A DNA stretch of 64,000 bases. Origin: an uncultured Candidatus Saccharibacteria bacterium. Lineage in GTDB: Bacteria; Patescibacteriota; Minisyncoccia; UBA6257; Colwellbacteraceae. The position numbers were made by a program, and so were the translations under genes. Of this stretch, positions 9,713-41,092 are shown piece by piece. The first letter of the stretch is position 1. Each line of letters begins with the position of its first letter. The notes under the pieces are model-generated. The model ran no database searches. It was given only the letters and a program-made list of their open reading frames with translations, and was not told the origin of the DNA. Location: the NCBI GenBank assembly GCA_964643135.1, contig CAZXPC010000001.1, positions 39,726-103,725 of the forward strand. Direction: 5' to 3'.

Positions 9713-9857
9713 GAGGTGTCACCTCGTCAGTTACCGAATAACCACCCAAGGGGAAGCCTTGGCAGCATATCTTGACGGAGTAGTGTTGCTGTGTTACGAT
9801 GGCTCCACGCTAAGAAAGGGAGTAAATCCCCTAAATTGGCGGTAGGATTGACCCACT

Positions 9858-10711: not shown

Positions 10712-11344
10712 ATGGGCATGTGGTATGTTATGAGGACTACGTCGATCGCGATCGCATTCGGAGCGCTCATGCTGCTCGCTGTTATGCCGATGAACACCGC
10801 CAGCGCCGGTATCTCCGCACCGTACGGGGATTGCAAGGTCAGCGACCTGCTGATCTGCGCCGCAGACAGCACGTACAATTGTCCCAGCAACCCGCCCCAG
10901 CAACCCGACAGAAGCGGCGGGATGTATGGCAGGACACAGACACCTGCCAGCGTGCTGATCGGAAGCCAGAACATCCCTACGATCAACAACTGGAACTACG
11001 ACGAATTTCCTGGCATGGTCATCCATATGTTCACGGTCATGTCGACGTGTGGGCACGCAGCTACGGTCTGCACCGTCCCGCCGGCGGGGTATGAAACTGC
11101 CCAGGGAGGCTATTGTATGGGAGTCACGAGGTCGTGGTTCCAGCAAGGCAGTCCAGATTCCTTTTGGTTCCAGGCGCCGACGTCCACTTACTGCCACGCT
11201 TATTACAATGACTGCGTGCCGAGTGAAGCGGTGACGGTTCGGCTCGATGCGAACCTTGAGACGCCTCTTCCAGCAGTCTTGGTCGTAGCTGGAAACCTGA
11301 ATCAGTACTACTACAGCTGCGGCTGCGGTAATGCGGCTCCTTGA
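10712..11344 (+). CDS. GC-rich island gene G2: secreted cysteine-rich protein of unknown function
   Basis: Signal peptide MRTTSIAIAFGALMLLAVMPMNTASA. 14 Cys in mature part. GC3-rich codons. Terminator hairpin plus GGGCTCTTTTTT at about 11383-11424. Confidence 0.6.
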   Translation: MGMWYVMRTTSIAIAFGALMLLAVMPMNTASAGISAPYGDCKVSDLLICAADSTYNCPSNPPQQPDRSGGMYGRTQTPASVLIGSQNIPTINNWNYDEFPGMVIHMFTVMSTCGHAATVCTVPPAGYETAQGGYCMGVTRSWFQQGSPDSFWFQAPTSTYCHAYYNDCVPSEAVTVRLDANLETPLPAVLVVAGNLNQYYYSCGCGNAAP

Positions 11345-11495
11345 AGCTCGCACCCAAAAGTCCTGTGAAATATCAGGCACCCCGTCCTAGCGAAACCTAT
11401 CTACATGGGAATCGCTAGGCGGGCTCTTTTTTACTCAAAAATAAATTTCTTGCCAAAAGCTCTGTACGGGTGTAACCATTATAGAGAGGATAAGG

Positions 11496-11738
11496 ATGCC
11501 GGAACCCGCTCAAGAGCTGAAGAGGCTCATCCAAGATCTTGCCAAGGAACTTGGCCCGGAATACAGGATCATTCTGGTGACGCGCAAGGGGGTCCGTCGA
11601 TTCCTCTTCCTTGCGTTCCTAGTCATCTTTGCGGCTTTTGTGCTCGGGCACGTGGCCGGGATGACGCTTGCCCAGAAGGTTTGTGACGGCGGCTGGCTCG
11701 GCGACTTCGCGTACGGTAATTGTCCGCGGAAGCCTTAG
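11496..11738 (+). CDS. GC-rich island gene G3: small single-pass membrane protein
   Basis: 80 aa. GAGAGGA Shine-Dalgarno-like sequence 6-7 nt upstream. Hydrophobic helix FLFLAFLVIFAAFVLGHVAG. Hairpin plus GGGCCTTTTTT terminator at about 11768-11800. Confidence 0.45.
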   Translation: MPEPAQELKRLIQDLAKELGPEYRIILVTRKGVRRFLFLAFLVIFAAFVLGHVAGMTLAQKVCDGGWLGDFAYGNCPRKP

Positions 11739-11857: not shown

Positions 11858-13189
11858 ATGAGAATATTAACGAGGGATCTTATTACTAAGACTGGCGAGA
11901 CGGTTAAAGTTGCCGGCTGGGTCAATGCGCGGCGCGACCAAGGCAAGATTATTTTTATTGATCTTCGGGACAGAAGAGGCATTGTTCAGGTGGTGATGAC
12001 ACCGAAAAATGAGGCGGTTTATACTATTGCCAAAGAATTGCGCGGCGAGTGGGTGATCGAAATCGTGGGCGTGGTTAAAGAACGCCCGGCCGCGATGGTC
12101 AATCCGAACATTGCAACCGGTAAAATAGAAATTCAGGTGAGCGAGCTAAAAGTTTTAGCTAAGGCCGAGCCTTTGCCGTTTGATTTACACGAGCGAGAGT
12201 TAAACCTCGAGCTCACAACTCAGCTCGACCACCGCGCGCTGCTTTTGCGCCACCCGCGCTTACAGGCAATTTTTAAAGTCCAGGCGGTGATTATCGATTC
12301 ATTTAGAGAATTTTTGAAATCGCAAGAATTTGTGGAGTTCCAGGCGCCGTGCATTACGCCGGCCACAGCCGAGGGGGGAGCAGAAGTTTTCCAGATCAAC
12401 TATTTCGATAAAAAGGCATATCTGACGCAATCGCCGCAGCTATATAAACAGATCGTGATGACCACTTTTGAAAGAGTTTTTTCGGTCAATAAAGTTTTCC
12501 GGGCTGAGCCATCGGCTACAACCAGGCACTTGACCGAGATTGTCTCGCTCGACGCCGAGATGGGCTTTATCGAGTCGTGGCAAGATGTGCGTGACATGTC
12601 TGAAGCGACTGTGAGATATGTTTTAAAACAAGTTGGCGAAAAATGTGCCGAAGAACTTAAAATAGTGGGCGCGACACTGCCGGTTATGATAGATAAGACG
12701 CCGACATATTCCTTAACCGAGGCGCAGGAGAAGATCTTCGCCGCAACCGGCAAAGATGTTCGCGGTGAGAAGGATCTGAATCCGGAAGATGAGCGCGCCA
12801 TTTGCGAAATAGTTAAGAAAGAAACCGGCTCCGATTTTGTTTATGTTTATGGCTACCCGACCAAGAAAAAGCCATTTTATGTCTACCCGAATCCGGATAA
12901 GCCGGAGTTCAATGAAGGCATGGACTTACTCTGCCGCGGCGTGGAGTGGCTGTCGGGCGGGCGGCGCGTCAACGATTACGAACAGCTCATGAGGCATGTT
13001 AAAGAGTGGGGCATGGACCCCGCTAAGATCGAGATGTTTTTAGAAGCGTTTCGGTACGGCGCGCCGCCTGAAGGCGGGTTCGCCCTGGGCGCGGAGCGGA
13101 TGACGATGCAAATCTTGGAACTCGCGAACGTGCGTGAAGCCGCGATGTTCCCGCGCGACATGAACAGAATTGATAAATCTCTGAATTGA
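11858..13189 (+). CDS. aspS: Aspartate--tRNA ligase, short archaeal/eukaryotic-type class IIb (possibly non-discriminating)
   Basis: 443 aa. N-terminal OB-fold. Motif 2 VFRAEPSATTRHLTEIVSLDAEMGF resembles archaeal-type AspRS more than AsnRS. QSPQLYKQ flipping loop. Motif 3 GGFALGAERMTM. Confidence 0.75.
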   Translation: MRILTRDLITKTGETVKVAGWVNARRDQGKIIFIDLRDRRGIVQVVMTPKNEAVYTIAKELRGEWVIEIVGVVKERPAAMVNPNIATGKIEIQVSELKVLAKAEPLPFDLHERELNLELTTQLDHRALLLRHPRLQAIFKVQAVIIDSFREFLKSQEFVEFQAPCITPATAEGGAEVFQINYFDKKAYLTQSPQLYKQIVMTTFERVFSVNKVFRAEPSATTRHLTEIVSLDAEMGFIESWQDVRDMSEATVRYVLKQVGEKCAEELKIVGATLPVMIDKTPTYSLTEAQEKIFAATGKDVRGEKDLNPEDERAICEIVKKETGSDFVYVYGYPTKKKPFYVYPNPDKPEFNEGMDLLCRGVEWLSGGRRVNDYEQLMRHVKEWGMDPAKIEMFLEAFRYGAPPEGGFALGAERMTMQILELANVREAAMFPRDMNRIDKSLN

Positions 13190-24333: not shown

Positions 24334-24404
24334 CGGGCTGTCGTATAGTGGTAGTATACATGGCTGGGGGTCATGCGGCCTGGGTTCAATTCCCAGCAGC
24401 CCGA
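24334..24404 (+). tRNA. tRNA, probably tRNA-Pro (anticodon GGG); no encoded CCA
   Basis: 7-bp acceptor stem CGGGCUG/CAGCCCG. T-arm CUGGG-UUCAAUU-CCCAG. D-loop with GG. Anticodon stem CAUGG/UCAUG with loop CUGGGGG. Followed by hairpin AAATCGCCC-tttcg-GGGCGATTT at about 24412-24436. Confidence 0.7.
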
Positions 24405-24447
24405 CAGAAAATTAAAATCGCCCTTTCGGGGCGATTTTGCCTTTCTA

Positions 24448-25507: not shown

Positions 25508-25927
25508 ATGCCAACAATTTCACAACTCGTAAAACGAAAAAGGACTAATCCTTCCAAAAAGGACAAGAGTCCGGCTTTGGGTTACTACTTTAACGTTATT
25601 CAAAACAAACCAGTTTATTCAGTTTCGCCGTTTAAGCGCGGCGTTTGCTTAAAGGTTTTTACCACCACACCAAAGAAACCGAACTCAGCGCTTCGTAAAG
25701 TTGCTCGTGTTCGCTTAACCAATGGCCAAGAAGTCACAGCTTATATTCCGGGCGAAGGCCACTCTTTGCAGGAGCACTCAGTCGTTATGATCCGCGGCGG
25801 TAGGGTTAAGGACTTGCCAGGCGTTCGATACCACATTGTTCGCGGCCGGCTCGACACGACCGGAGTAACGGACCGAAAACAGCAAAGGTCAAAATATGGC
25901 GCCAAGACGCCTAAGGCTAAAGCCTAA
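25508..25927 (+). CDS. rpsL: 30S ribosomal protein S12
   Basis: [11 protein letters not shown] ... [17 protein letters not shown] ... [29 protein letters not shown]. Confidence 0.95.
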
Positions 25928-26016
25928 CCAATAACAAATAACCAATAACTCATAACAAATAACAGGAATGCATTTGTATCCCGTTATAAGTCATCAGTTA
26001 TAAGTAATAAGTTAAA
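25928..26016 (+). repeat. AATAAC/GTTAT imperfect-palindrome element copy 1 (subtype A, AATGCATT core) between rpsL and rpsG
   Basis: Left arm ccaataacaaataaccaataactcataacaaataacag. Centre gaatgcatttgtatccc. Right arm gttataagtcatcagttataagtaataagttaa, ending 4 nt before ATG. Confidence 0.7.
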
Positions 26017-26019
26017 AAT

Positions 26020-26505
26020 ATGAGAAAGAAACGTAATTATGCGAGAGTAAGGCGGCCGGATGTTAAGTATCAAGATGTAGCTTTGGCCCGCTTCATTAAC
26101 AAAATGATGTACGACGGCAAGAAATCAACCGCTGAACAAGTTGTCTACGGCGCTTTGGACATTGTCGCCAAAGAAACCAAGAAGGACGCCCTGGTTGTTT
26201 TCACAACTGCCATGGAGAATGCCTCGCCGCTAGTAGAAACCGTTTCGCGAAGAGTTGGCGGCGCTAACTATCAGATTCCTGAAGAAGTCCGCCCAGCCCG
26301 CAAATTTATCTTATCTTCAAGGTGGATTATCGAAGCTACCCGCGGCAAGAAGGGTAAGCCAACGGCTGAGAAGCTTGCTGAGGAATTGATGGCCGCTTTC
26401 AAGAACGAAGGCGCCGCAATCAAGAAGAAGCTTGATGTTCACAGGATGGCCGAAGCCAACCGCGCTTTTGCCCACTTTGCCCGCAAGAGAACTCCAACGA
26501 GCTAA
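26020..26505 (+). CDS. rpsG: 30S ribosomal protein S7
   Basis: RRPDVKYQDVALARFINKMMYDGKKSTAEQVVYGA ... typical S7. 161 aa. Confidence 0.9.
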   Translation: MRKKRNYARVRRPDVKYQDVALARFINKMMYDGKKSTAEQVVYGALDIVAKETKKDALVVFTTAMENASPLVETVSRRVGGANYQIPEEVRPARKFILSSRWIIEATRGKKGKPTAEKLAEELMAAFKNEGAAIKKKLDVHRMAEANRAFAHFARKRTPTS

Positions 26506-26592
26506 CTAATAACAAATAACAAATAACTCATAACAAATAACAGAAATGCATTTGCATCCCGTTATAAGTTATCAGTAATAAGTAATAAGTTA
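26506..26592 (+). repeat. AATAAC/GTTAT imperfect-palindrome element copy 2 (subtype A) between rpsG and fusA
   Basis: taactaataacaaataacaaataactcataacaaataacag - aaatgcatttgcatccc - gttataagttatcagtaataagtaataagttaat, then ATG. The centre contains the perfect palindrome AAATGCATTT. Confidence 0.7.
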
Positions 26593-26594
26593 AT

Positions 26595-28694
26595 ATGCGT
26601 AAATACCCAATTGAAAAAGTTCGGGACATTGGAATCATCGCGCACATCGATGCCGGTAAGACCACCGTTTCGGAGCGTATTCTTTTCTACACCGGAGTTT
26701 CTCACAAAATCGGCGAGGTGCACGAGGGCGAAACCGTCATGGACTGGATGGACCAAGAGCGTGAGCGAGGCATTACGATCACTTCCGCTGCGACCACCTG
26801 TTTTTGGACCCCGACTTATGTAAACGGCGACAAAAAGTTTGAACACCGAATTAACCTAATCGATACCCCGGGCCACATCGACTTTACGGTTGAAGTTAAG
26901 CGATCGCTCCGGGTGCTTGACGGCGCGGTCGTAGTTTTCGACGGCGTTTCCGGCGTGGAACCGCAGTCCGAAACCAACTGGCACTATGCCGACGACTACA
27001 AAGTTCCTCGCATCTGTTTTATCAACAAGCTCGACCGCATGGGCGCGAGTTATGAATTTTGTTTGAAATCTATCCGAGAAAGGCTCACTCCGAACGGCGT
27101 ACCAATTCAACTTAACATCGGCACCGAAGGCGAATTTAAAGGCGTGATCGACCTCATTAAGATGAAGGCCTATGGCTTTGAAGGCGACAAGGGCGAGACA
27201 ATCGTTGAAATTGAAATTCCGGAAAATATGAAGGAAGAAGCTCAAACTTGGAGAAACCAGATGATCGAAAAGATTGCCGAGACCGACGACGCGATGTCGA
27301 CCAAATATTTGGAAGGCGCCGAATTCACAGTTGACGAATTGAAGGCGGCCTTAAGGAAGGCGACCTTGAAAGTGCAGCTGGTGCCAATCGTTTGCGGATC
27401 GGCTTTGAAGAACAAAGGAGTGCAGCTCGTGCTCGACGCTGTTATCGACTACTTGCCGTCTCCGCTCGATGTGCCTCCGGTTAAAGCGATTGACCAGAAA
27501 ACCGGTTTGGAAGTTTTGCGCCACCCGGATGATACCGAACCTTTCACAGCACTTGCGTTCAAAATCGCGGCTGACCCGTATGTGGGCAGTCTTACTTTTT
27601 TCCGCGTATATTCAGGAACATTGAAGAAGGGTAGCTATATTGTGAACGTGACTAAGGGCAGGCAGGAACGCGTTGGCCGAATATTGCGTATGCATGCCAA
27701 CGAACGAGAAGAAATTGATGAAATCTATGCCGGTGAAATCGGCGCACTGGTAGCTCTTAAAGACACTACAACCGGAGACTCATTGACCGACCCGGAACAC
27801 CCGGTAGTTTTGGAAAAAATCGACTTCCCGGAACCGGTTATCAGCCAGAGAATTACCCCGAAGACTAAGGCTGATCAGGAAAAACTTGGCGTGGCTTTGA
27901 GGCGATTGGCCGAAGAAGATCCGACTTTCCGCGTAGCTGGCGACCCAGAAACCGGTGAAACTATCATTTCCGGCATGGGCGAATTGCACTTGGAAGTTTT
28001 GGTTGAACGTATGCGCCGGGAATTTAGCGTCGACACGACTGTCGGCCGGCCGCAGGTTGCTTACAAAGAAACTATTTTGGGCGAATCTGAAGCTGAAGGT
28101 AAGTTCATCAAGCAGTCCGGCGGCAAGGGTCAGTACGGTCACGTCTGGCTCCGTATCAAGCCTTTGGAACGCGGGAAGGGCTTTGAATTCATCGATGCTA
28201 CTAAGGGTGGATCAATTCCTAAAGAATTTATTAAGCCGGTTGAGAAGGGTGTCGAAGAGGCCCTTAGCCGCGGTGTAGTCGCAGGTTTTAAGATAATTGA
28301 TACCGAGGTCACCGTTTTTGACGGATCTTACCACGATGTCGACTCGTCTGAAGCAGCCTTCAAGATCGCCGGTTCGATGGCTTTGCAGGAATGCGTTAAG
28401 AAAGCTAAACCGGTTATTCTGGAACCAATTATGCGCGTGCAGACGCTGGCGCCGGTAGAATTCTTCGGCGACATCACGGGCGACATCTCTTCAAAGCGAG
28501 GACGCATTAACGAAATCACTGACAGAGGAATGATTAAAGTGACCGACTCCGAAGTTCCGCTTTCTGAAATGTTCGGCTATGCGACCAAGCTGAGGTCCAT
28601 GACCCAGGGCCGAGGATCCTTTACGATGGAATTTTTGAAGTACGAACCGGTGCCGAAGGCGGTAGAGGCTGACATCGTCGCCGGCAAAAAGTAG
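26595..28694 (+). CDS. fusA: Elongation factor G
   Basis: G1 [22 protein letters not shown]. 699 aa with EF-G domains IV-V ([11 protein letters not shown]...). Confidence 0.95.
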
Positions 28695-28833
28695 AAATTT
28701 CTTTAAAACCAGCGATCTTCTGCGTTGCGGGTCCCGACAAACTTCGTCGAAGTAGTATTCAAAGACTACATCTCCTCGTTTGTCCTCCCGCGCCTTGGAT
28801 CTCATCTGATTTTATAGAAATTTAAGTATAGTA

Positions 28834-28866
28834 AAAAAGCGTCCCGTTCTACGGGGCGCTTTTTGA
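28834..28866 (+). terminator. Intrinsic terminator after fusA
   Basis: Stem AGCGTCCCG / CGGGGCGCT with 5-nt loop followed by TTTT. Confidence 0.55.
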
Positions 28867-28870
28867 CCTC

Positions 28871-28898
28871 TTGACGAATTATTTTAGATCAGTATACT
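28871..28898 (+). promoter_or_regulatory. Promoter-like TTGACG-N16-TATACT upstream of island gene G5, followed by a 150-nt leader with an 8-bp inverted repeat AATTTGAG/CTCAAATT (about 28918-28942)
   Basis: Hexamers and inverted repeat seen in sequence. Confidence 0.4.
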
Positions 28899-29056
28899 AG
28901 CAAGTCTGTTCTTTATAAATTTGAGTTACTAAACCTCAAATTCTGCGGTGGACAGAAGGAGATTTCTTCTAAGAAGCCTCTTCCTGCCCCCGCGGAATTT
29001 GTGTGTTTCGAGCCTCACGGCTTGAGATACGCGGATGATGCGGTTCCCAGTCAGCA

Positions 29057-29842
29057 ATGAAAGGGGACGATGGACATATGGGGATGTCCACCGAAAAACG
29101 ATGGAGTCGATACAACATGTCGCCTGCGACCCAGACCACCACGACGCCGATCCGCAAGACCGTTGACGTCAGCGCCGAAGCGATCCGCGAGGACGCGATC
29201 AGCCAGTTCCGCGCGACCCAGAAGCAGCCGCAGTTCAAGGCCATCATCGGCCAAGTCCTGCCGGCCGGGACGCTCGAGAACATGAGCCGCTCGATCCAGC
29301 AGTCGCGCGCCAGCACGCTCACGGGCATCGTCGGCGTTCAGGAGGGCAACCTCCCGATCGTACTGCACCTGCCCAGCCACGTGCTCTCGCTCTGCGACCG
29401 CCTCGCGATCGCGAACGGCGGCAAGCTCGAGAACGTGCCGACCTGGATCAACCAGGTCCAGCGCCGCACCCCCTGGGCCATGATGCCCGAGGGGCAGCTC
29501 CAGGGAACGACCGACTTCGACCTCCAGGGCGTGCCGACCGTCAACATCACGACGGAGATCCGCACCTGCCAGGCCGAGAAGCGCAGCTTCCCGACGACCG
29601 AGCAGCTCGTCGACGCGATCAACGCCGCGCGGGCCAAGGCGCAGCACGACGACGAGGAGTTCGTCCTCGTCGGCAAGACGTTCCTCGCGTTCGGCGACAT
29701 CGCCGGCCAGGGCTACACGCCGACCATCACGGTCGGCGAGGACACCCAGACGCTCGGCCGCGTGCCGTTCGTCGAAGGCGAGGAGCTCGAAGACGAGGCC
29801 GTGCTCGCGAACTACGACACGGTCTACGGCTTCTCCAGCTGA
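29057..29842 (+). CDS. GC-rich island gene G5: soluble protein of unknown function
   Basis: 261 aa. Roughly 65% GC with about 90% GC3 (cgc/gcg/atc/ctc/gag/ggc codons). AAGGGG SD-like sequence upstream. Perfect 11-bp stem GGACCTAGATT/AATCTAGGTCC plus T6 terminator at about 29868-29930. Antisense ORFs 28969-29328 and 29051-29899 are shadow ORFs. Confidence 0.6.
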   Translation: MKGDDGHMGMSTEKRWSRYNMSPATQTTTTPIRKTVDVSAEAIREDAISQFRATQKQPQFKAIIGQVLPAGTLENMSRSIQQSRASTLTGIVGVQEGNLPIVLHLPSHVLSLCDRLAIANGGKLENVPTWINQVQRRTPWAMMPEGQLQGTTDFDLQGVPTVNITTEIRTCQAEKRSFPTTEQLVDAINAARAKAQHDDEEFVLVGKTFLAFGDIAGQGYTPTITVGEDTQTLGRVPFVEGEELEDEAVLANYDTVYGFSS

Positions 29843-30006
29843 ACCCGCCCCCGTGTGCGTCCCAATCGGACCTAGATTAAAGCAATAAGAGTCTTGCACT
29901 CTGAGCTAACAATCTAGGTCCACTTTTTTACTCAAAAATATTGACTTAGATTTTCGCTGGTATAATATTATGTCGCGGGAGACATTCCGCTGTGAGGTAC
30001 GCAAAA

Positions 30007-30225
30007 ATGAAGACAGGAATTGTATTGGCACTGGGAGCAATGCTCGCGCTCACGTTCGTGACCATGGCCATTGCCCAGCCCGCTCAGGCTGAAGCAGGGA
30101 GAGTGTGCTATGTTGGTCCCACATGGATAGCTGACCAGCAGTACACGCAGGGCTGGGTCGCATGCTGTCCGGACGAGAGCGACCCTACCACCTGTGGTTA
30201 CGGCGGCTACTGGGTCAAGACCTAG
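30007..30225 (+). CDS. GC-rich island gene G6: small secreted cysteine-rich peptide (72-aa precursor, about 44-aa mature)
   Basis: Start at ATG 30007 (the ORF-track start at 29992 is GTG). Signal peptide MKTGIVLALGAMLALTFVTMAIAQPAQA/EAG. Mature part has 4 Cys (VCYVGP...ACCPDESDPTTCGYGGYWVKT). GAGGT SD 9 nt upstream. Hairpin plus T6 after stop. Confidence 0.5.
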   Translation: MKTGIVLALGAMLALTFVTMAIAQPAQAEAGRVCYVGPTWIADQQYTQGWVACCPDESDPTTCGYGGYWVKT

Positions 30226-30568
30226 TAGATCCAAAGGTCCACAATATCGACACGGTGTCTTTTTTCCTCTCACAACGCCCGAATGAAAGCTCTTAGAGCA
30301 ATTAAGTCGGGTTTATTTTTATCCGGCAATTTCTAAACGGCAAACGGCAACTCATTTTATAGGCGAGCGAGTTACTTTAGATCGGACTTCGAGCGCTGAT
30401 CTTTGTATTTCGGGGTGCCCCGTTGCGAAGCAATGGGGAGCGCAGCGACGGATGGCGAAGCGAAAACCGCAACGCGAGTTTGAGCGAGAGACTATCCGGT
30501 AAGCGAGCAGTTATCCACACCCATAACAATTTAAAGATGTTTTGGACAAGTTTTTTATCTTTCCACAG

Positions 30569-30596
30569 TTGACAGAGAGACGCACTCTAATATAGA
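30569..30596 (+). promoter_or_regulatory. Promoter-like TTGACA-N16-TATAGA about 210 nt upstream of tuf
   Basis: Consensus -35. Sits at the end of a 570-bp non-coding gap. Confidence 0.35.
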
Positions 30597-30808
30597 ATTA
30601 GAAACCTTAAGTCGCAAAGACTTAATCTTTGATAACTGTTGGAAATTTCGTTCATCTTTTGAGCGAGACGAAGTGAAAATTTTGATGCATACAAGAAGCT
30701 TGTACGCTGAAAAATTTTTGCAAAGTCGCAGCCAAAATATGGACGGAAGTGACAAAGTTGTTATCGAAGAATAAGTCTAAATATTAATTAACCAAATTTA
30801 GCAAAACT

Positions 30809-32008
30809 ATGGCAGAGAAAGCAAAATTTGAACGTACCAAACCGCACGTTAACGTCGGTACTATTGGTCACGTCGACCACGGCAAGACATCTCTTACCGC
30901 GGCTATTACTCACGTCCTTTTCTTGAAGGGCTGGGCGAAGAAAGAAGAAAAGGTTGACGACATCGACAACGCTCCGGAGGAAAAAGCTCGTGGTATTACT
31001 ATCGCGCTTCACCACTCTGAATACGAGTCTCAAAAGAGACACTACGCTCACATAGATGCACCAGGGCACGCTGACTACATCAAGAACATGATCACCGGTG
31101 CGGCTCAGATGGACGGCGCAATTTTAGTTGTGTCGGCTGCTGACGGCCCGATGCCTCAGACTCGAGAACACATTCTTCTTGCTAAACAGGTTGGAGTACC
31201 TGCCATAGTGGTATTCCTTAACAAATGCGACATGGTTGATGACCCAGAACTTATTGGTCTCGTTGAAGCCGAAGTCCGCGAACTTTTGACTAAATACGGT
31301 TTCCCAGGCGACACCACTCCAGTTATCCGCGGTTCAGCTGTTAAAGCTCTTGAAGCTAAGTCAGCTGACGACGCCGGTGCTAAGCCAATTCTTGAATTGG
31401 TTGAAGCTTTGGACAACTACATCCCAGATCCTAAGAGAGAAACTGACAAGCCGTTCTTGATGCCGATTGAAGACATCTTCTCGATTGAAGGCCGAGGTAC
31501 CGTTGTAACCGGCCGTGCCGAAAGAGGTATCTTAAAAGTTAACGACGAAGTTGAAATCATTGGTCTAAGGCCAACTCAGAAGACTATCGTTACCGGTATC
31601 GAAATGTTCAACAAGCTTTTGGATGAAGTCCAGGCTGGAGACAACGTTGGAATTTTGCTCCGAGGTTTGAAGAAAGAAGACGTTGAACGCGGCCAGGTTA
31701 TTTGTAAGCCAGGCGCTGTTACTCCGCACACTGAATTTGAATGTGAAATCTACGTTCTGACCAAAGAGGAAGGCGGCCGACACACTCCGATTTTCCCAGG
31801 CTACAAGCCACAGTTCTACATTAGAACTACGGACGTAACCGGTGAAGTTACTTTGGCTACTGGCACTGAAATGGTTATGCCAGGCGACACCGTTAAAGTT
31901 TCTGTTAAGCTTATCGCTCCAGTTGCGCTTGAAGAGAAACAGCGTTTCGCTATCCGAGAAGGCGGCAAGACCGTGGGTGCCGGCGTGGTCACTAAGATCA
32001 CTAAATAG
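30809..32008 (+). CDS. tuf: Elongation factor Tu
   Basis: [29 protein letters not shown]. 399 aa. Confidence 0.97.
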
Positions 32009-32532: not shown

Positions 32533-33171
32533 CTAGGACTTGGCCTGCTCGCCAACTTTGGATTTCCATTCTTTTATAAGGTCTTGAATGGCTGAGAGGC
32601 CCGCCGAATAAGTCGACATGATCTTTTCAACCCTTTCTCTTTCGCTTAGATTTAATGTATTGCCGATATCGATCATGCTTTTTTGCCGGTCGGTCAATAG
32701 TTTATTGGTTTTCTCTACTTCTTCAAGATAAATGGCCGCTATCCTCTCGGCTCTCTTCCGGTCGGCAATATCTCTGATATTGCACTGGATCATTTTAGTG
32801 CCGTCGATAGGGTATAAGTTGCTCACAAATTCTACTTCAACCACGTGTCCATCTTTGGCCTTGAGCGGCATATCTTCGTACCGGACATAGCCCTTGTCTT
32901 GGAGTTCTTGGAAGACTGTCTTGCTCTCAGCAATGTCTCTAAAAGCGCCAAGCTCATAAAGTTTTTTTCCGACTACTTCCTCGAGAGAGTAGCCTATTAA
33001 TTTGAGCAAAAAAGGATTGGCGTCGATGATCTTCTCTGTCAGCGGGTCGATAAGGAAAATGCCGTCTTGGGCCATCTCAAAAAGCTTCCTGAATTTTATT
33101 TCGGAGATCTCGAGCTGATGGCGCATTTCTTCCGCCGTAATATTAGGATTGCTGGTGATCTTATTCTCCAT
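32533..33171 (-). CDS. Stand-alone PAS-domain protein with C-terminal coiled-coil, inserted antisense between rpsJ and rplC
   Basis: PAS fold signature MAQDGIFLIDPLTEKIIDANPFLLKLIGYSLEEVVGKKLYEL. No recognizable output (kinase, GGDEF, HTH) domain. Confidence 0.65.
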   Translation of the reverse strand: MENKITSNPNITAEEMRHQLEISEIKFRKLFEMAQDGIFLIDPLTEKIIDANPFLLKLIGYSLEEVVGKKLYELGAFRDIAESKTVFQELQDKGYVRYEDMPLKAKDGHVVEVEFVSNLYPIDGTKMIQCNIRDIADRKRAERIAAIYLEEVEKTNKLLTDRQKSMIDIGNTLNLSERERVEKIMSTYSAGLSAIQDLIKEWKSKVGEQAKS

Positions 33172-33312: not shown

Positions 33313-33321
33313 TATCAAGAA

Positions 33322-33406
33322 CAGATAACGCATAACTGATAACAAATAACAGAAAAGAAGCGAAAGCCAATTGTTATGAGTTATAAGTGATTAGTTATAA
33401 GTTAAA
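33322..33406 (+). repeat. AATAAC/GTTAT imperfect-palindrome element copy 3 upstream of rplC
   Basis: acagataacgcataactgataacaaataacag - aaaagaagcgaaagccaa - ttgttatgagttataagtgattagttataagttaaat, then ATG. Confidence 0.65.
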
Positions 33407-33409
33407 TTT

Positions 33410-33847
33410 ATGAAAGGACCATACGTCAAAGCCAAAAAGTTAACGATGAGCCAAATCTGGCAAAACAACCGCGTTGTTCCGGTAACTTATATTGAAATTT
33501 TGGATAAGCCCGAAGGATGGGATTTGAAGGTCGGTGATCTATTAAAAGTAACCGGTACAACTAAAGGTAAGGGTTTCCAAGGCGTAGTTAAGCGCCATGG
33601 CTTCGGCGGCGGTCCGTCGACTCATGGTCAAAAGAACCGGCAGAGAATGCCTGGTTCAATCGGTAATACGACTCCTCAGAGAGTGCTTCCAGGCCGCCGT
33701 ATGGCCGGACACATGGGCGTTGAAACTCACACTATCAAAAATGTAGTTTTGGTTGAATTGGCCGAAGACGGCAAGAAAGGGGCAGTTAAAGGCGCTATCC
33801 CGGGCTGGAGGAACAAGACTATTAAAATTCGCAAATCCCAGAGTTAA
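33410..33847 (+). CDS. rplC: 50S ribosomal protein L3 (short form, 145 aa)
   Basis: KGKGFQGVVKRHGFGGGPSTHGQ ... R.PGSIGNTTPQRVLPGRRMAGHMG. The internal region present in E. coli L3 is missing. Confidence 0.88.
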   Translation: MKGPYVKAKKLTMSQIWQNNRVVPVTYIEILDKPEGWDLKVGDLLKVTGTTKGKGFQGVVKRHGFGGGPSTHGQKNRQRMPGSIGNTTPQRVLPGRRMAGHMGVETHTIKNVVLVELAEDGKKGAVKGAIPGWRNKTIKIRKSQS

Positions 33848-36547: not shown

Positions 36548-37243
36548 ATGGCACGAAAAGTTAACCCAAATGTATTCAGGCTAGGCATTAATCGGACATG
36601 GGACTCCCGGTGGATTAACTTACGAAACATGAAAACGTGGCTCGCCGAAGATGAGGCTATTCGCGAGATCATTATGAAAAAGATCGGTTTGGCCGGCATC
36701 TCTAGAATCGAGATAGAGCGAACGGGGGACCGATATAAGATATTCATTAAGGCCGCCAAACCAGGTATTATTATCGGCCGCGGCGGCAAGGGTATCGAAG
36801 ACCTGACCAAGCTCCTCGAGAAATCGATCAAGGGACGCGTGGCTTTGAGCCTGAACGTTGAAGAATTGAAAAGGACCGAGGTGTCGTCATACGTTATTGC
36901 GCAGAACATTGCATGGGATTTGGAGAAGAGAATGAGGTACCGCCGGACGATCAAGAAGTATCTTGATATGGTTATGCAAAATCGAGACGCCAAGGGCTGC
37001 AAGATCGCTGTTTCAGGCAGGCTTGACGGCAATGAAATCGCGCGCGGCGAGCACTTGTCTAAGGGTAAATTGCCTTTGTCGACCTTACGAGCCAACATCG
37101 ATTACGGAACCGCTACGGCTATAACTGCCATGGGAACGATCGGTATTAAGGTTTGGATTTACAAGGGAGAAATCTTTGCTAAACAAATAACTGATAACAA
37201 ATCACGAATAACAAATACAAAAACAGAGAATCAGTCGTTATAA
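36548..37243 (+). CDS. rpsC: 30S ribosomal protein S3
   Basis: ARKVNPNVFRLGINRTWDSRW ... KH domain GIIIGRGGKGIEDL ... GRLDGNEIARGEHLSKGKLPLSTLRANIDYG. The 3' end runs into repeat element copy 4. Confidence 0.92.
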   Translation: MARKVNPNVFRLGINRTWDSRWINLRNMKTWLAEDEAIREIIMKKIGLAGISRIEIERTGDRYKIFIKAAKPGIIIGRGGKGIEDLTKLLEKSIKGRVALSLNVEELKRTEVSSYVIAQNIAWDLEKRMRYRRTIKKYLDMVMQNRDAKGCKIAVSGRLDGNEIARGEHLSKGKLPLSTLRANIDYGTATAITAMGTIGIKVWIYKGEIFAKQITDNKSRITNTKTENQSL

Positions 37244-37270
37244 GTTATCTGTTATAAGTAATAAGTTAAA
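37183..37270 (+). repeat. AATAAC/GTTAT imperfect-palindrome element copy 4 (overlaps rpsC 3' end, ends 5 nt before rplP ATG)
   Basis: aaacaaataactgataacaaatcacgaataacaaatacaaaaacagagaatcagtcgttataagttatctgttataagtaataagttaaa. Confidence 0.65.
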
Positions 37271-37275
37271 AAAAC

Positions 37276-37695
37276 ATGTTAGTCCCAAAGAAAGTAAAAC
37301 ACAGGAAGTGGCACAAAGGCCGATCGAAGTCGAGGCTTGTTGAAACACGCGGCACGAGCTTGGCTTACGGCAGCTACGGTTTGCAGGCCACTCAGCCTTT
37401 TTGGCTTAATTCCAGGCAGATCGAGGCGGGACGCCGAACGATCACCAACTTCGTTAAGCGCGGCGGCAAGATCTGGATTCGCGTTTTCCCGGATAAGCCG
37501 GTAACAAAAAAGCCGCCTGAAGTTACTTTGGGAGGAGGTAAGGGTGCGGTTGACCGATACGTTTTCCCGGTCCGACCAGGTAGAATAATTTTCGAAATGG
37601 ATGGAATTCCAGAAGAAACCGCCCGCGAGGCTTTGCGATTGGCCGGCCACAAGCTGCCTTTTACCACCAGGTTTGTTAAAAAGGGACAGTTGTAA
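37276..37695 (+). CDS. rplP: 50S ribosomal protein L16
   Basis: LVPKKVKHRKWHKGRSKS ... GSYGLQATQPFWLNSRQIEAGRRTIT ... KIWIRVFPDKPVTKKP. Confidence 0.93.
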   Translation: MLVPKKVKHRKWHKGRSKSRLVETRGTSLAYGSYGLQATQPFWLNSRQIEAGRRTITNFVKRGGKIWIRVFPDKPVTKKPPEVTLGGGKGAVDRYVFPVRPGRIIFEMDGIPEETAREALRLAGHKLPFTTRFVKKGQL

Positions 37696-38567: not shown

Positions 38568-38570
38568 GCG

Positions 38571-38662
38571 AAACAAATAACTAATAACCAATGACTAATA
38601 ACAGAAACACAATAAATCAGCCCAACCCCTTATTCGTTATGGGTTATAAGTTATAAGTTAAT
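38571..38662 (+). repeat. AATAAC/GTTAT imperfect-palindrome element copy 5 (subtype B) between rplN and rplX
   Basis: gaaacaaataactaataaccaatgactaataacagaaacacaataaatcagcccaaccccttattcgttatgggttataagttataagttaatt. Confidence 0.65.
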
Positions 38663-38666
38663 TCAC

Positions 38667-40093: not shown

Positions 40094-40651
40094 ATGTCAA
40101 AAATTGCTAAAAAACCAATAATTATCCCCGATGGCGTGACCGCTGTTTTGAAAGACCACATGGTGGAAATCAAGGGCAAGAACGCGACTTTGAACGTTCC
40201 TGTGCTGGAAGGCGTTAAGGTTGAGATTAAGGATAAGGCCATCACTCTTACCTCGGACAGGGCGACTAAGCAGGCCAGTTCAAACTGGGGCACAACCAGC
40301 GCGCACTTAAAGAACGCCATCGCAGGATCAAATGCGGATTTTGTTAAAGAGCTCTCGGTTGTCGGAATCGGTTTCAAGGCAGCGCTTGAGGCCAAGGACC
40401 TAGTTTTGAGCCTTGGGTTCAGCCACCCGGTGAGATTTGCTATTCCGGAAGGCGTTAAGATTACCGTTGAAAAGAACATTGTGAAGGTTGCCGGTCCGAA
40501 CCGATGGCTGGTCGGAGAGACGGCCGCCAGGATTCGTGATTTTAAGAGACCAGAGCCGTATCAGGGCAAGGGCATCCGCTACAAAGATGAGATCGTTAGG
40601 AAGAAAGCGGGTAAGAAAGCAGCGGCCGCAGCCGGTCCTGCCGCAAAATAA
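40094..40651 (+). CDS. rplF: 50S ribosomal protein L6
   Basis: SKIAKKPIIIPDGVTAVL ... two-domain L6 pattern ... PEPYQGKGIRYKDE. Ala-rich C-terminal tail. Confidence 0.9.
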   Translation: MSKIAKKPIIIPDGVTAVLKDHMVEIKGKNATLNVPVLEGVKVEIKDKAITLTSDRATKQASSNWGTTSAHLKNAIAGSNADFVKELSVVGIGFKAALEAKDLVLSLGFSHPVRFAIPEGVKITVEKNIVKVAGPNRWLVGETAARIRDFKRPEPYQGKGIRYKDEIVRKKAGKKAAAAAGPAAK

Positions 40652-40654
40652 CAT

Positions 40655-40746
40655 ATAACTCATAACCAATGACTAATAACAGAAAAACAAAAAATCAGTT
40701 TGAATCCCTATCCGTTATGGGTTATAAGTTATCAGTCATAAGTTAA
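40655..40746 (+). repeat. AATAAC/GTTAT imperfect-palindrome element copy 6 (subtype B) between rplF and rplR
   Basis: catataactcataaccaatgactaataacagaaaaacaaaaaatcagtttgaatccctatccgttatgggttataagttatcagtcataagttaatat. Confidence 0.65.
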
Positions 40747-40750
40747 TATC

Positions 40751-41092
40751 ATGCACGCAAAAACATTAAGGAAAATTAGGAAGGCGACCAGAAACAGAGC
40801 CAAAATTCACGGCACTGCGGCTTTGCCGAGGCTTTCGGTTTTCCGCAGCAACCGCTATTTGCGCGCTCAGCTAATTGACGACAACGGAGGCGTCACCATT
40901 ATCTCGGGCAGTACCGACAGCAAAGTTAAAGCCAACAAGACTAAGCAGGCTGAAAATTTAGGAGCGGTGATTGCTAAGGCCGCCAAGGAGAAGGGCATAG
41001 CTCAAGTTGTCTTTGACCGAGGATCATATAAATATCATGGTCGAGTAAAAGCTCTGGCGGAATCCCTCCGAGCCAACGGTATCAAAATCTAA
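40751..41092 (+). CDS. rplR: 50S ribosomal protein L18
   Basis: [29 protein letters not shown] ... [19 protein letters not shown]. Confidence 0.9.

What the first reader, a model, noticed from the sequence alone, without database searches (positions are those of the whole stretch)
28870..30270. Island C: very GC-rich 261-aa protein (G5) plus small secreted 4-Cys peptide (G6) inserted between fusA and tuf
fusA and tuf are normally adjacent in the str operon. Here they are separated by about 2.1 kb containing a promoter-like TTGACG-N16-TATACT, a 150-nt leader with an AATTTGAG/CTCAAATT inverted repeat, and G5 (roughly 65% GC and about 90% GC3 by eye). G5 has a perfect 11-bp-stem terminator. G6 follows, with an AQA/E signal-peptidase site and a 44-aa mature peptide (VCYVGPTWIADQQYTQGWVACCPDESDPTTCGYGGYWVKT) that resembles a bacteriocin or defensin-like peptide in size and Cys spacing. 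A 570-bp non-coding stretch follows. G5 has no motif I can recognise. A secreted small Cys peptide paired with a larger cytoplasmic partner could be a toxin/immunity or peptide/modifier pair.
Basis: partly seen in the sequence, partly recalled or inferred. Interest (0 to 1): 0.65.

Follow-up and report, generated by a model that had tools for sequence, protein, structure and literature searches.

The report
Hypervariable GC-saturated gene cassette after fusA
Between two translation-factor genes of an uncultured Parcubacteria (candidate phyla radiation) bacterium sits a stand-alone gene of unknown function whose silent codon positions are almost all G or C. Its regulatory flanks are conserved among related genomes while the protein itself is swapped for barely recognisable versions; the small secreted peptide gene next to it is a one-off neighbour, not a partner.

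Summary
fusA (26595-28694) and tuf (30809-32008) are 2.1 kb apart. The gap holds G5 and G6, each with its own promoter.

Corrections:
- G5 starts at 29117 (241 aa, GC3 0.96, 6 SD above the window's genes).
- G6 starts at 30007 (72 aa).
- The "non-coding" stretch holds a conserved structured 120-nt element and the tuf promoter.

Neither protein has any homologue in the protein databases searched. One reason is that gene callers often take G5-type genes on the antisense strand.

Five related genomes (EF-G about 88-90% identical) carry a gene in the same position. It has the same promoter, start context, terminator style, size, acidity and GC3 (0.92-0.97). Its protein is extremely diverged. Two strains with 95% identical fusA DNA have alleles only about 32% identical.

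One relative keeps a truncated serine integrase and MarR-type regulators in the same gap. None has G6.

The toxin/immunity or peptide/modifier pairing is therefore not supported. The best reading is a moron-like, hypervariable cassette in a decayed mobile-element hot spot. Its biochemical function and the cause of the GC3 saturation remain unknown.

The parts
26595..28694 (+). fusA (EF-G), upstream anchor of the island
   Evidence: ORF. It is 80% identical to EF-G of Candidatus Colwellbacteria and 88-90% identical to the close relatives L084, L085 and L087.
28831..28867 (+). fusA intrinsic terminator (bidirectional hairpin with flanking A and T runs)
   Evidence: Inverted repeat I4, 17 nt and 88% complementary. 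Terminator scan.
28871..28898 (+). G5 promoter, TTGACG-N16-TATACT
   Evidence: 10/12 matches. The -35, the -10 and the downstream CTGTTCTTT are conserved in L084, L085, L087 and L090.
28899..29116 (+). G5 leader of about 210 nt. It includes the window-specific inverted repeat 28918-28925 / 28935-28942 and a stable hairpin at 28941-28996.
   Evidence: Fold of -31.7 kcal/mol, z -4.4. The first 60 nt or so are conserved and the rest is poorly alignable; no convincing consensus structure was found.
29117..29842 (+). G5 coding sequence. It encodes a 241-aa acidic (pI 4.8) protein rich in T, Q, S and N, with no signal peptide and GC3 0.96. It is the window's allele of the hypervariable 'p' family.
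   Evidence: Codon statistics. Similarity to L084p: Smith-Waterman z 5.2, 0 of 500 shuffles as high. A profile of three relatives scores G5 at 11.7 bits against a best of 8.4 in 1000 shuffles. The sense frame is the conserved one.
29051..29899 (-). Antisense 'shadow' ORF of 282 aa. It is not a gene, yet it is the product on record for the 169-kb NCBI contig.
   Evidence: GC123 of 0.90/0.46/0.61. P0123 is on record for the NCBI contig. Antisense-frame similarity between alleles is far lower than sense-frame similarity.
29868..29929 (+). G5 3' compound hairpin terminator: an 11-bp outer stem, an inner stem, then TTTTTT and an ACTCAAAA tail
   Evidence: It is conserved in L084 and L085 with compensatory changes in both stems. 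The same tail occurs in L090 and at window 11426-11443.
29941..29969 (+). G6 promoter: TTGACT, then TGgTATAAT or TAATAT
   Evidence: and the sequence.
30007..30225 (+). G6 coding sequence. The 72-aa precursor has a predicted Sec signal (MKTGIVLALGAMLALTFVTMAIAQPAQA|E). The mature peptide is 44 aa, acidic (pI 4.1) and has 4 Cys. It is specific to this window.
   Evidence: It is an orphan. AlphaFold2 gives pLDDT 64 and an all-beta model with no fold match. No relative has it.
30400..30520 (.). Element E, a conserved structured element of about 120 nt. Its strand is undetermined.
   Evidence: Covariance-model hits of 131.5 bits here, 112.5 bits in L085 and 102.8 and 62.1 bits in L087, where the two copies flank the p gene. 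92.9% of cells are paired, 16 pairs carry double changes, and 0 of 500 shuffles reach these values. No Rfam match.
30569..30598 (+). tuf promoter, TTGACA-N18-TAGAAT, followed by a leader of about 210 nt
   Evidence: 11/12 matches.
30809..32008 (+). tuf (EF-Tu), downstream anchor
   Evidence: It aligns to L087 tuf from 38 nt upstream of the ATG onwards.

Best explanation
The fusA-tuf spacer of this Parcubacteria lineage is an accessory hot spot. It most likely descends from a mobile element that integrated by a serine recombinase and has since decayed.

Its constant component is a self-contained, moron-like transcription unit. The unit consists of a sigma-70-type promoter, a leader of about 210 nt, and a gene for a 230-270-aa acidic, non-secreted protein rich in T, Q, S and N (here G5, 29117-29842). 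G+C is maximised at every silent site of that gene. A compound hairpin terminator closes the unit.

The non-coding flanks and the first few codons are conserved. The body of the protein is replaced between strains by alleles so diverged that homology is marginal or undetectable. I infer that whole alleles are exchanged by recombination in the conserved flanks. I also infer that diversifying or frequency-dependent selection keeps them diverse, as it does for genes involved in conflict (phage or mobile-element defence, exclusion or counter-defence specificity). The protein has no conserved catalytic-type residues, so it more likely acts by binding than by catalysis.

G6 is a separately transcribed, window-specific extra cargo gene for a small secreted peptide that is probably disulfide-bonded. 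It is not a conserved partner of G5.

Shown here: the anatomy, the strand, the orphan status, the positional family, the conserved flanks with a hypervariable coding sequence, the GC3 saturation in all alleles, the integrase remnant in one relative, and the absence of G6 elsewhere.

Inferred: the recombination mechanism, the selective regime, the conflict-type function, and any role for element E.
For: Independent transcription units:
- Promoters lie at 28871, 29941 and 30569, and terminators at 28831-28867 and 29868-29929.

Foreign composition:
- G5 GC3 is 0.963. The window's 50 other long ORFs average 0.541 +/- 0.069, so z is 6.1.
- The Leu codons TTA/TTG and the Arg codons AGA/AGG are absent, although the host uses them heavily.

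Orphan status:
- G5 matches only itself in 5.8 billion clustered proteins, in 1.84 billion representatives scanned with HMMER, and in JGI contigs, viral contigs, phage and plasmid collections.

Positional family:
- L084/L089, L085, L087 and L090 all carry a + strand ORF of 231-272 aa downstream of fusA, with GC3 0.92-0.97 and pI 4.8-4.95 where computed (the four aligned alleles).
- L087p resembles L084p (z 25.7) and L085p (z 18.3). G5 resembles L084p (z 5.2, 0 of 500 shuffles). A profile of the three relatives ranks G5 above 1000 shuffles.

Conserved flanks:
- Promoter and leader are about 90% identical between L084 and L085 by BLAST (95.6% in a lenient global alignment). The 3' region is 94% identical.
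- Both regions are detectably similar to the window.
- The L090 leader is 79% identical to that of L085.

Hypervariability within a near-species:
- L084 and L085 have fusA 95.3% identical in DNA and 99.4% in protein. Their p proteins are only about 32% identical, with Smith-Waterman z 2.35.
- L090p is not detectably similar to any other allele.

Coding strand:
- Sense-frame similarity z is 28.5, 20.0 and 5.8, against 7.6, 8.8 and 2.6 for the antisense frame.

Mobile-element context:
- L087 carries a truncated serine recombinase (PF07508 at 26.7 bits against a cut-off of 21.1; phrog_95 integrase at 3.8e-9) and a MarR-type regulator.
- L085 and L090 carry small winged-helix proteins.

G6 is unique to the window.
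Against: - No function is demonstrated. The 'conflict gene' reading rests only on the evolutionary pattern.
- The integrase remnant was seen in one relative only, and no mobile-element hallmark lies in the window's own island.
- G5's membership of the family is statistically modest: BLASTP E is 0.001 for a single comparison, the HMM score is 11.7 bits, and hhalign of the G5+L084p pair (A5) against L085p gives no support.
- L090p may be a non-homologous replacement rather than a diverged allele.
- Nothing explains why GC3 stays at 0.92-0.97 in about 47% G+C genomes. If the alleles have long resided in this lineage, mutation pressure should have eroded it.
- The GC-rich block extends about 25 nt past the stop codon, which fits an imported segment better than selection at the codon level.
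- Expression on the + strand is inferred from promoter and terminator orientation, not measured.
Confidence: 0.6

Rival explanations
1. G5 and G6 form a functional pair. G6 would be a secreted bacteriocin-like or defensin-like peptide, and G5 its cytoplasmic immunity protein or modifying enzyme.
For: The two genes are adjacent and on the same strand. G6 has a plausible signal peptide and four Cys in a 44-aa mature peptide. Both are orphans.
Against: A strong terminator and a separate promoter lie between them. Their GC3 differs, 0.96 against 0.67. Five relatives with a G5-position gene lack any G6 homologue. Neither protein matches any bacteriocin, immunity, defence or modifying-enzyme family, or any solved structure by sequence; a fold search was only possible for G6 and found nothing. 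The mature peptide is acidic (pI 4.1), unlike most cationic defensin-like peptides (the comparison rests on general knowledge).
Confidence: 0.05
2. G5 is a single, very recent horizontal transfer from an unknown high-GC bacterium or phage. It has no special relation to this locus and has simply not yet drifted towards the host's composition.
For: The codon usage is wholly foreign: CTC, GTC, ACG, GCG and CGC dominate and GC3 is 0.96. The GC-rich block runs about 25 nt past the stop codon. Other Parcubacteria also carry GC-rich ORFs in the same gap, for example L039 and L056.
Against: The promoter, start context and terminator around the gene are host-like in composition and conserved in five relatives. 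Those relatives carry differently diverged genes with the same GC3 in the same slot. No donor homologue exists in about 15 billion proteins. GC1 of 0.60-0.63 is lower than the roughly 0.72 expected at GC3 0.96 from a regression over 70 loci.
Confidence: 0.12
3. The real gene is the antisense 282-aa ORF (29051-29899, - strand), as in the public gene call, or the locus codes on both strands (ambigrammatic).
For: The antisense frame is open across the whole block in every allele tested. The product on record for the NCBI contig and for L084/L089 is the antisense one.
Against: The antisense GC123 pattern of 0.90/0.46/0.61 is that of a shadow frame. Similarity between alleles is much stronger in the sense frame. 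The promoter and the terminator T-run are oriented for the + strand. All A/T-ending codons are avoided, not only the three whose complements are stop codons. This is the 'pseudoambigrammatic' pattern described for an extreme-GC3 virus (doi 10.1101/2025.03.14.643323).
Confidence: 0.03
4. The island is an assembly chimera that joins a high-GC organism's gene into a Parcubacteria contig.
For: There is an abrupt compositional switch at both ends of one ORF.
Against: Two independent Logan assemblies match at 100% identity, and a 169-kb NCBI contig carries the same arrangement. The same architecture appears in five other sequencing runs. Conserved regulatory flanks abut the ORF.
Confidence: 0.01

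Closest known systems
Morons of temperate phages: autonomous promoter-gene-terminator units inside prophages, often with deviant base composition (concept of Hendrix and colleagues, cited from my own knowledge)
   Same: The unit stands alone with its own sigma-70-type promoter and intrinsic terminator. Its G+C differs sharply from its neighbours. It sits in a context with an integrase remnant and small regulators in a relative.
   Different: No phage structural or replication genes are present. The unit lies in a core translation operon. Its coding sequence is hypervariable between strains while its flanks are conserved. Its composition deviates towards extreme GC rather than AT.
Minimal mobile elements and hypervariable 'replacement' loci, in which different content sits between conserved flanks and is exchanged by homologous recombination (for example in Neisseria; cited from my own knowledge)
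   Same: The flanks are conserved, at 90-96% between L084 and L085, while the content between them is drastically different. The break points lie at the ends of the cassette.
   Different: Here the replaced unit is a single coding sequence whose alleles share size, charge, an N-terminal motif and GC3 saturation. The break points fall at the start codon and about 25 nt after the stop codon.
Variable cargo hot spots of integrated phages and satellites, such as the defence hot spots of P2/P4-like elements (cited from my own knowledge)
   Same: A fixed position carries strain-specific, fast-turnover cargo next to integrase and regulator genes.
   Different: No PADLOC defence model matches. The cargo is one orphan family rather than a menu of known systems.
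'Pseudoambigrammatic' extreme-GC3 genes of certain RNA viruses (doi 10.1101/2025.03.14.643323)
   Same: GC3 is about 0.96-0.98 and exceeds that of the host. An accidental, fully open antisense ORF results. The cause is unexplained.
   Different: Those are eukaryotic RNA virus genomes. This is a chromosomal DNA cassette in a bacterium.
Class II bacteriocin or defensin-like secreted Cys peptides (relevant to G6 only)
   Same: The precursor is small, carries a Sec-type signal and yields a mature peptide of about 44 aa with four Cys.
   Different: There is no sequence, profile or fold match. The peptide is acidic. No immunity or export genes are nearby. It is unique to this genome.

Membership tests
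Toxin/immunity or bacteriocin/immunity gene pair | The two genes are co-transcribed or translationally coupled | tested here: not met
   A compound hairpin terminator at 29868-29929 and a separate promoter at 29941-29969 lie between G5 and G6.
Toxin/immunity or bacteriocin/immunity gene pair | The two partners co-occur across genomes | tested here: not met
   Five relatives with a G5-position gene have no G6 homologue.
Toxin/immunity or bacteriocin/immunity gene pair | Homology to a known toxin, bacteriocin, immunity or modifying-enzyme family | tested here: not met
   Pfam, PHROGs, NCBIfam, PADLOC and PDB sequence searches gave nothing significant for either protein. A Foldseek search of the G6 model also found nothing.
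Toxin/immunity or bacteriocin/immunity gene pair | Antimicrobial activity of the peptide and protection by the partner | not testable with these tools
   This needs peptide synthesis and expression assays.
Moron (autonomous unit in a prophage or mobile element) | Own promoter and own factor-independent terminator | tested here: met
   Consensus promoter with 10/12 matches and a hairpin followed by a T-run, both conserved in relatives.
Moron (autonomous unit in a prophage or mobile element) | Base composition differs from the surrounding DNA | tested here: met
   GC3 is 0.96 against 0.54 +/- 0.07 for the window's other genes. The flanks are 0.34-0.45 G+C.
Moron (autonomous unit in a prophage or mobile element) | Located inside a prophage or integrated mobile element | tested here: inconclusive
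   L087 has a truncated serine recombinase and a MarR-type regulator, and L085 and L090 have winged-helix genes. The window's own island has no such gene, and no structural phage genes were seen anywhere.
Replacement locus or minimal mobile element | Conserved flanks with non-alignable or highly diverged content between closely related strains | tested here: met
   Between L084 and L085, fusA is 95.3% identical in DNA, the leader about 90-96% and the 3' region 94%, while the p proteins are about 32% identical with z 2.35.
Replacement locus or minimal mobile element | Exchange by homologous recombination after DNA uptake | not testable with these tools
   This needs population-level data or experiments.
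Integron gene cassette | An attC site with inverse core sites (RYYYAAC ... GTTRRRY) at the 3' end of the cassette | tested here: not met
   The 3' hairpin at 29868-29921 lacks the paired core sites when the sequence is read directly. It is followed by a T-run like a terminator.
Integron gene cassette | An integron integrase nearby | not tested
   The window was not screened systematically for tyrosine recombinases. The only recombinase seen, in L087, is of the serine type.
Target gene of a diversity-generating retroelement | A template repeat similar to a variable region, plus a reverse transcriptase | tested here: not met
   No second copy of any part of the island exists in the 64-kb window beyond an 18-nt terminator tail. 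Variation spans the whole protein rather than a C-terminal variable region. The window was not screened for a reverse transcriptase.
Ambigrammatic or overlapping antisense gene pair | The antisense frame is under protein-level constraint, and only the codons whose complements are stops are avoided | tested here: not met
   Sense-frame z far exceeds antisense-frame z. All A/T-ending codons are avoided; only 9 of 241 remain.
Patescibacteria secreted GW-repeat family (window 55596-56339 and 189 relatives), considered for G6 | A significant profile match to the family | tested here: not met
   Pairwise BLASTP gave E 0.001 over 16 residues. hhalign against a 30-member alignment gave a probability of 2.2%.
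Any described RNA family (Rfam), considered for element E and the G5 leader | A covariance-model match | tested here: not met
   Between 28000 and 31500 only two chance-level hits appeared at E up to 1. At gathering threshold the whole window matched only the tRNA.

The most novel reading that the evidence does not exclude
The G5-type unit would be a previously undescribed kind of diversification cassette in candidate phyla radiation bacteria. It would have a fixed promoter/leader/terminator frame, bounded in at least one genome by copies of a structured 120-nt element (E). Within that frame, whole protein bodies would be swapped among strains. A directed AT-to-GC process (biased gene conversion or targeted mutagenesis), or selection on the nucleic acid itself, would hold their silent sites at about 95% G+C. 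Because gene callers read these genes on the wrong strand, the family would be largely invisible in protein databases.
Probability: 0.12. Interest if true: 0.85.

Novelty: new variant of a known kind. Interest (0 to 1): 0.6.

Why it matters
- It shows a core translation operon of a reduced-genome symbiont hosting a strain-specific gene that turns over fast. That makes the gene a candidate handle on phage, host or mobile-element conflict in organisms that cannot yet be cultured.
- The maintained GC3 of 0.92-0.97 in genomes of about 47% G+C is an unexplained compositional phenomenon. It bears on how mutation bias, biased gene conversion and selection shape silent sites.
- It exposes a systematic annotation error. 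Gene callers trained on the host choose the antisense shadow ORF, so such genes are hidden from protein-based searches.
- Element E and the compound 3' hairpin are candidate new structured nucleic-acid elements.

Tried and rejected
Searches that found nothing:
- Family and structure searches for G5 and G6 in Pfam, PHROGs, NCBIfam, PADLOC and PDB sequences gave nothing usable.
- Homologue searches for G5 in the 5.8-billion-cluster database, in 1.84 billion representatives with HMMER, in JGI metagenome contigs, viral contigs, phages and plasmids returned only G5 itself.
- The same database search for G6 returned only G6 itself.
- A scan of public collections for the core of element E found nothing.
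- The p-family alignment was too diverged for a viral scan, and the 'a' family gave no viral hits.
- A literature search for the run accessions found nothing.

Structure prediction:
- The single-sequence AlphaFold2 model of G5 failed (pLDDT 31.6).
- The G6 model is mediocre (pLDDT 64) and has no fold neighbours.

Hypotheses tested and dropped:
- Internal duplication in G5: not significant.
- G6 as a single repeat of the window's 247-aa GW-repeat secreted protein: hhalign probability 2.2%.
- Homology between the p family and the acidic 'a' proteins of L084/L085: no support. hhalign also gave no support for G5+L084p (A5) against L085p.
- A conserved leader RNA structure: weak, -5.8 kcal/mol, with poor alignment beyond 60 nt.
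- A remnant of the small protein (ending ...FYLEPIE) that precedes tuf in more distant Parcubacteria: absent from the window.
- Exact-protein look-ups of EF-G and EF-Tu: these found no contigs readable by the tool.
Full report
**What is in the window**

The window comes from a Patescibacteria (Parcubacteria) genome. Its EF-G is 80% identical to that of Candidatus Colwellbacteria bacterium RIFCSPLOWO2_01_FULL_48_10, and the next matches are other Paceibacteria-type genomes assembled from metagenomes.

- rpsL, rpsG and fusA (26595-28694) are followed by a 2114-bp gap, then tuf (30809-32008) and rpsJ.
- In the non-Patescibacteria loci fetched with EF-G, the fusA-tuf gap is 25-207 bp.
- In Patescibacteria the gap ranges from 75 bp to more than 6 kb and holds unrelated ORFs.
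In this phylum, however, the spacer is a recurrent landing place.

**Anatomy of the island**

In order along the + strand:

- A bidirectional hairpin terminator for fusA (28831-28867).
- A promoter-like TTGACG-N16-TATACT (28871-28898).
- A leader of about 210 nt.
- G5.
- A compound hairpin (outer 11-bp stem 29868-78 / 29911-21 and an inner stem; -26.5 kcal/mol, z -4.9) followed by TTTTTT.
- A second promoter (29941-29969).
- G6.
- A 583-bp stretch with no convincing ORF.
- Within that stretch, a near-consensus tuf promoter (30569-30598).

The region has seven promoter-like sites, against 1.5 expected from shuffles. G5, G6 and tuf are therefore three separate transcription units.

**G5 is a real + strand gene and a compositional outlier**

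- The 261-aa ORF has GC123 of 0.62/0.45/0.93.
- Its first 20 codons have GC3 of only 0.55. From the ATG at 29117 the 241-aa ORF has 0.63/0.44/0.96.
- The 29117 start has a GGAG upstream. It is the start chosen in the Logan gene calls. It aligns with the start codons of the related genes in a conserved AACATG context.
- Only 9 of 241 codons end in A or T.
- The Leu codons TTA/TTG and the Arg codons AGA/AGG are absent, although the host's fusA, tuf, rpsL and rpsG use them 42 and 23 times.
- The window's other 50 long ORFs have GC3 of 0.541 +/- 0.069, so G5 lies 6.1 SD out.
- The 282-aa ORF on the opposite strand has the 0.90/0.46/0.61 pattern of a shadow frame.
- That antisense product is nevertheless the one on record for the 169-kb NCBI contig that carries this locus (P0123).

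**Neither protein has a database relative**

- G5 matched only itself in the 5.8-billion-cluster search, in the HMMER scan of 1.84 billion representatives, in JGI metagenome contigs, viral contigs, phages and plasmids, and in every family library and PDB.
- G6 likewise matched only itself in the 5.8-billion-cluster search, and nothing in the family libraries or PDB.
- AlphaFold2 on single sequences gave pLDDT 31.6 for G5 and 64 for G6. The G6 model is all-beta with five strands.
- Foldseek found no neighbours for the G6 model.

**The locus is not an artefact**

- Two Logan contigs from different runs are 100% identical to the window across fusA-G5-G6.
- The NCBI contig carries EF-G, the island and EF-Tu together.

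**Close relatives change the picture**

The 90%-identity clusters of EF-G, S7, S12 and neighbouring proteins led to contigs from five other sequencing runs. These genomes are about 75-80% identical to the window in DNA over rpsL-fusA, and their EF-G is about 88-90% identical.

Each carries, downstream of fusA and on the + strand, an ORF of 231-272 aa:

| Locus | Coordinates | GC3 |
|---|---|---|
| L084 (the same allele is in L089) | 9537-10268 | 0.97 |
| L085 | 5966-6766 | 0.94 |
| L087 | 12087-12905 | 0.92 |
| L090 | 2286-2981 | 0.95 |

These ORFs sit in genomes whose fusA has GC3 of about 0.45-0.50. The four alleles that align (G5, L084p, L085p, L087p) are acidic (pI 4.8-4.95), contain 27-29% T+Q+S+N and only 1.5-2.9% Lys, and have no signal peptide. 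In L084 and L089 the recorded gene call is again the antisense shadow ORF.

**Homology among these 'p' genes**

- L087p is clearly related to L084p (Smith-Waterman z 25.7) and to L085p (z 18.3).
- G5 is related to L084p at z 5.2 (0 of 500 shuffles as high), colinear over about 190 residues.
- BLASTP of G5 against L084p gives E 0.001 over the C-terminal 53 residues.
- An HMM of the three relatives scores G5 at 11.7 bits, above all 1000 shuffles (best 8.4).
- hhalign of the G5+L084p pair (A5) against L085p gives no support.
- L090p shows no detectable similarity to any other allele beyond an N-terminal MQxTxxTTxRPT-like motif.
- Similarity is far higher in the sense frame than in the antisense frame: 28.5, 20.0 and 5.8 against 7.6, 8.8 and 2.6. 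This settles the coding strand.
- The few invariant columns of the four-sequence alignment are mostly Gly, Pro and hydrophobic residues. There is no catalytic-looking constellation.

**Conserved frame, hypervariable content**

- The promoter (-35 TTGAC, -10 GTATAMT), the CTGTTCTTT just downstream and the start context are conserved in all the genomes.
- The 3' compound hairpin is conserved between the window, L084 and L085, with compensatory changes in both stems.
- The T-run with its ACTCAAAA tail recurs in L090.
- L084 and L085 are near-identical strains. fusA is 95.3% identical in DNA and 99.4% in protein. The leader is about 90% identical by BLAST (95.6% in a lenient global alignment). The 3' 100 nt are 93.8% identical.
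- Their p proteins are only about 32% identical in a gappy global alignment, and the pairwise similarity is barely above chance (z 2.35).
- Identity breaks down within a few codons of the ATG and resumes about 25 nt after the stop codon.
- This is allele replacement inside a conserved frame, not gradual divergence.
- The p family was not found in 80 more distant loci.

**Context in relatives**

- L087 spans the whole fusA-tuf interval. In order it holds a truncated serine recombinase (PF07508 at 26.7 bits against a cut-off of 21.1; phrog_95 integrase at 3.8e-9, covering only the middle of the profile), a MarR-type regulator, the p gene, a 96-aa winged-helix-like ORF, a small membrane ORF on the opposite strand, then tuf.
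- L084, L085 and L090 also carry a second GC-rich acidic gene ('a', 274-285 aa, GC3 0.77-0.86) and small winged-helix genes.
- None carries G6.
- The window's island is thus a trimmed version of this arrangement: p (G5) plus a unique extra gene (G6).

**Element E**

- Window 30400-30520 matches L085 5294-5412 and L087 11710-11826, both on the opposite strand.
- A covariance model built from these three also finds a second copy at L087 12971-13089 (62 bits). In L087 two direct copies therefore bracket the p unit.
- On the model-fitted alignment 92.9% of cells pair, against 75.7% in shuffles and 30-38% when partners are slid. Sixteen pairs carry double changes, and 0 of 500 shuffles reach these values.
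- The alignment leans towards the structure and has only five sequences. G-U against A-C counts (3 against 2) do not decide the strand.
- No Rfam family matches, and the element's core was not found in the viral or JGI collections.
- Its role is open. It could be a small RNA, a protein-binding site or a recombination site.

**Interpretation**

- The G5 unit fits the definition of a moron: its own promoter, its own terminator and a deviant composition. It sits in what looks like the remains of an integrated element.
- It behaves like a replacement locus with conserved flanks.
- I infer exchange of whole alleles by recombination in the flanks under diversifying selection, which is typical of conflict genes. 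This inference is not demonstrated.
- The GC3 saturation is shared by all alleles and affects every kind of silent site, including the first positions of Leu and Arg codons. It extends about 25 nt beyond the stop codon but not into the promoter or the terminator.
- GC1 of 0.60-0.63 is lower than the roughly 0.72 predicted at that GC3 from 70 loci. GC2 is as predicted.
- This fits neither a plain recent import from a very high-GC genome nor simple translational selection. I cannot explain it.
- A similar unexplained 98% GC3, with an accidental open antisense frame, has been described in an RNA virus (doi 10.1101/2025.03.14.643323).

**G6**

- It has a plausible Shine-Dalgarno sequence and start at 30007, an n-h-c signal region ending AQA|E, and an acidic 44-aa mature part with the Cys pattern C-x18-CC-x8-C.
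- It shares a short motif (QGW.AC.P..DP..C.GY) with the window's 247-aa secreted GW-repeat protein. Against a 30-member profile of that family the match is not significant (probability 2.2%).
- It is best described as a lineage-specific secreted peptide of unknown role.

**Verdict**

The pairing hypothesis is not supported. What is really there is a hypervariable, GC3-saturated orphan gene cassette with a conserved regulatory frame, sitting in a mobile-element-derived hot spot, plus an unrelated small secreted peptide gene and a new structured element.

Noticed in passing
window 25924-26019, 26502-26597, 33313-33412, 37185-37278, 38570-38665, 40649-40752; also L087 7370-7464 and 7880-7973: A repeated intergenic element of about 90 nt lies immediately upstream of ribosomal-protein and fusA start codons. 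It has four or five tandem ATAAC-containing 8-mers, a variable centre, then an inverted array of GTTAT 8-mers ending in AGTTAA just before the ATG. The two best copies are 93% identical. It could form a long imperfect hairpin, so it may be a processing site or a protein-binding array.
   Followed up: partly
window 29051-29899 (-); L084 9507-10280 (-); L089 3185-3958 (-): The gene products on record for the NCBI contig and for several Logan contigs are the antisense shadow ORFs of the GC3-saturated genes. The true proteins are therefore missing from protein databases.
   Followed up: yes
window 9858-10499, 10712-11344, 11496-11738; terminator at 11385-11443: There is another cluster of G+C-enriched ORFs (GC3 0.70-0.74). 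At least two have signal-peptide-like N-termini and Cys residues, and none has a Pfam match. The terminator after the second ORF ends with the same 18 nt (CTTTTTTACTCAAAAATA) as the G5 terminator.
   Followed up: partly
window 55596-56339: A 247-aa secreted protein with repeated GW...GWI.F motifs belongs to an unannotated family found across Patescibacteria. The search returned 189 hits, some fused to PKD or Ig-like domains.
   Followed up: partly
window 32533-33171 (-): A 212-aa ORF on the opposite strand interrupts the S10 operon between rpsJ and rplC. It looks PAS-domain-like by eye, which was not checked against Pfam. An identical protein is on record (P0134).
   Followed up: no
L039 about 8667-9144; L056 about 9731-10319: In two AT-rich Parcubacteria genomes (loci of 0.37-0.38 G+C) the fusA-tuf gap also holds a G+C-rich ORF (0.63 and 0.54). 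The one in L039 has a signal peptide. They are unrelated to G5 in sequence.
   Followed up: no
L020, L029, L030, L033, L040, L047, L053, L054, L068 (fusA-tuf gaps): Many more distant Parcubacteria encode a small conserved protein just upstream of tuf, with an N-terminal ...VV..D...YE.L motif and a C-terminal ...EERFYLEP motif. It is absent from this window.
   Followed up: partly
L003, L009, L013, L043, L065, L074 (contig ends): Several contigs of metagenome-assembled relatives end at or within the 3' part of fusA. This is what a strain-variable region downstream of fusA would do to assemblies.
   Followed up: no
L084 8030-8878, L085 4416-5240, L090 829-1686: A second orphan family ('a', 274-285 aa, pI about 4, GC3 0.77-0.86) lies directly after fusA in three relatives. 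It is 90% identical between L084 and L085, has no Pfam or PHROG match, and is absent from the window.
   Followed up: partly
window 24334-24405: tRNA-Pro (GGG) is the only tRNA in the window. It lies 4.3 kb upstream of the island, so the island is not inserted at a tRNA.
   Followed up: yes
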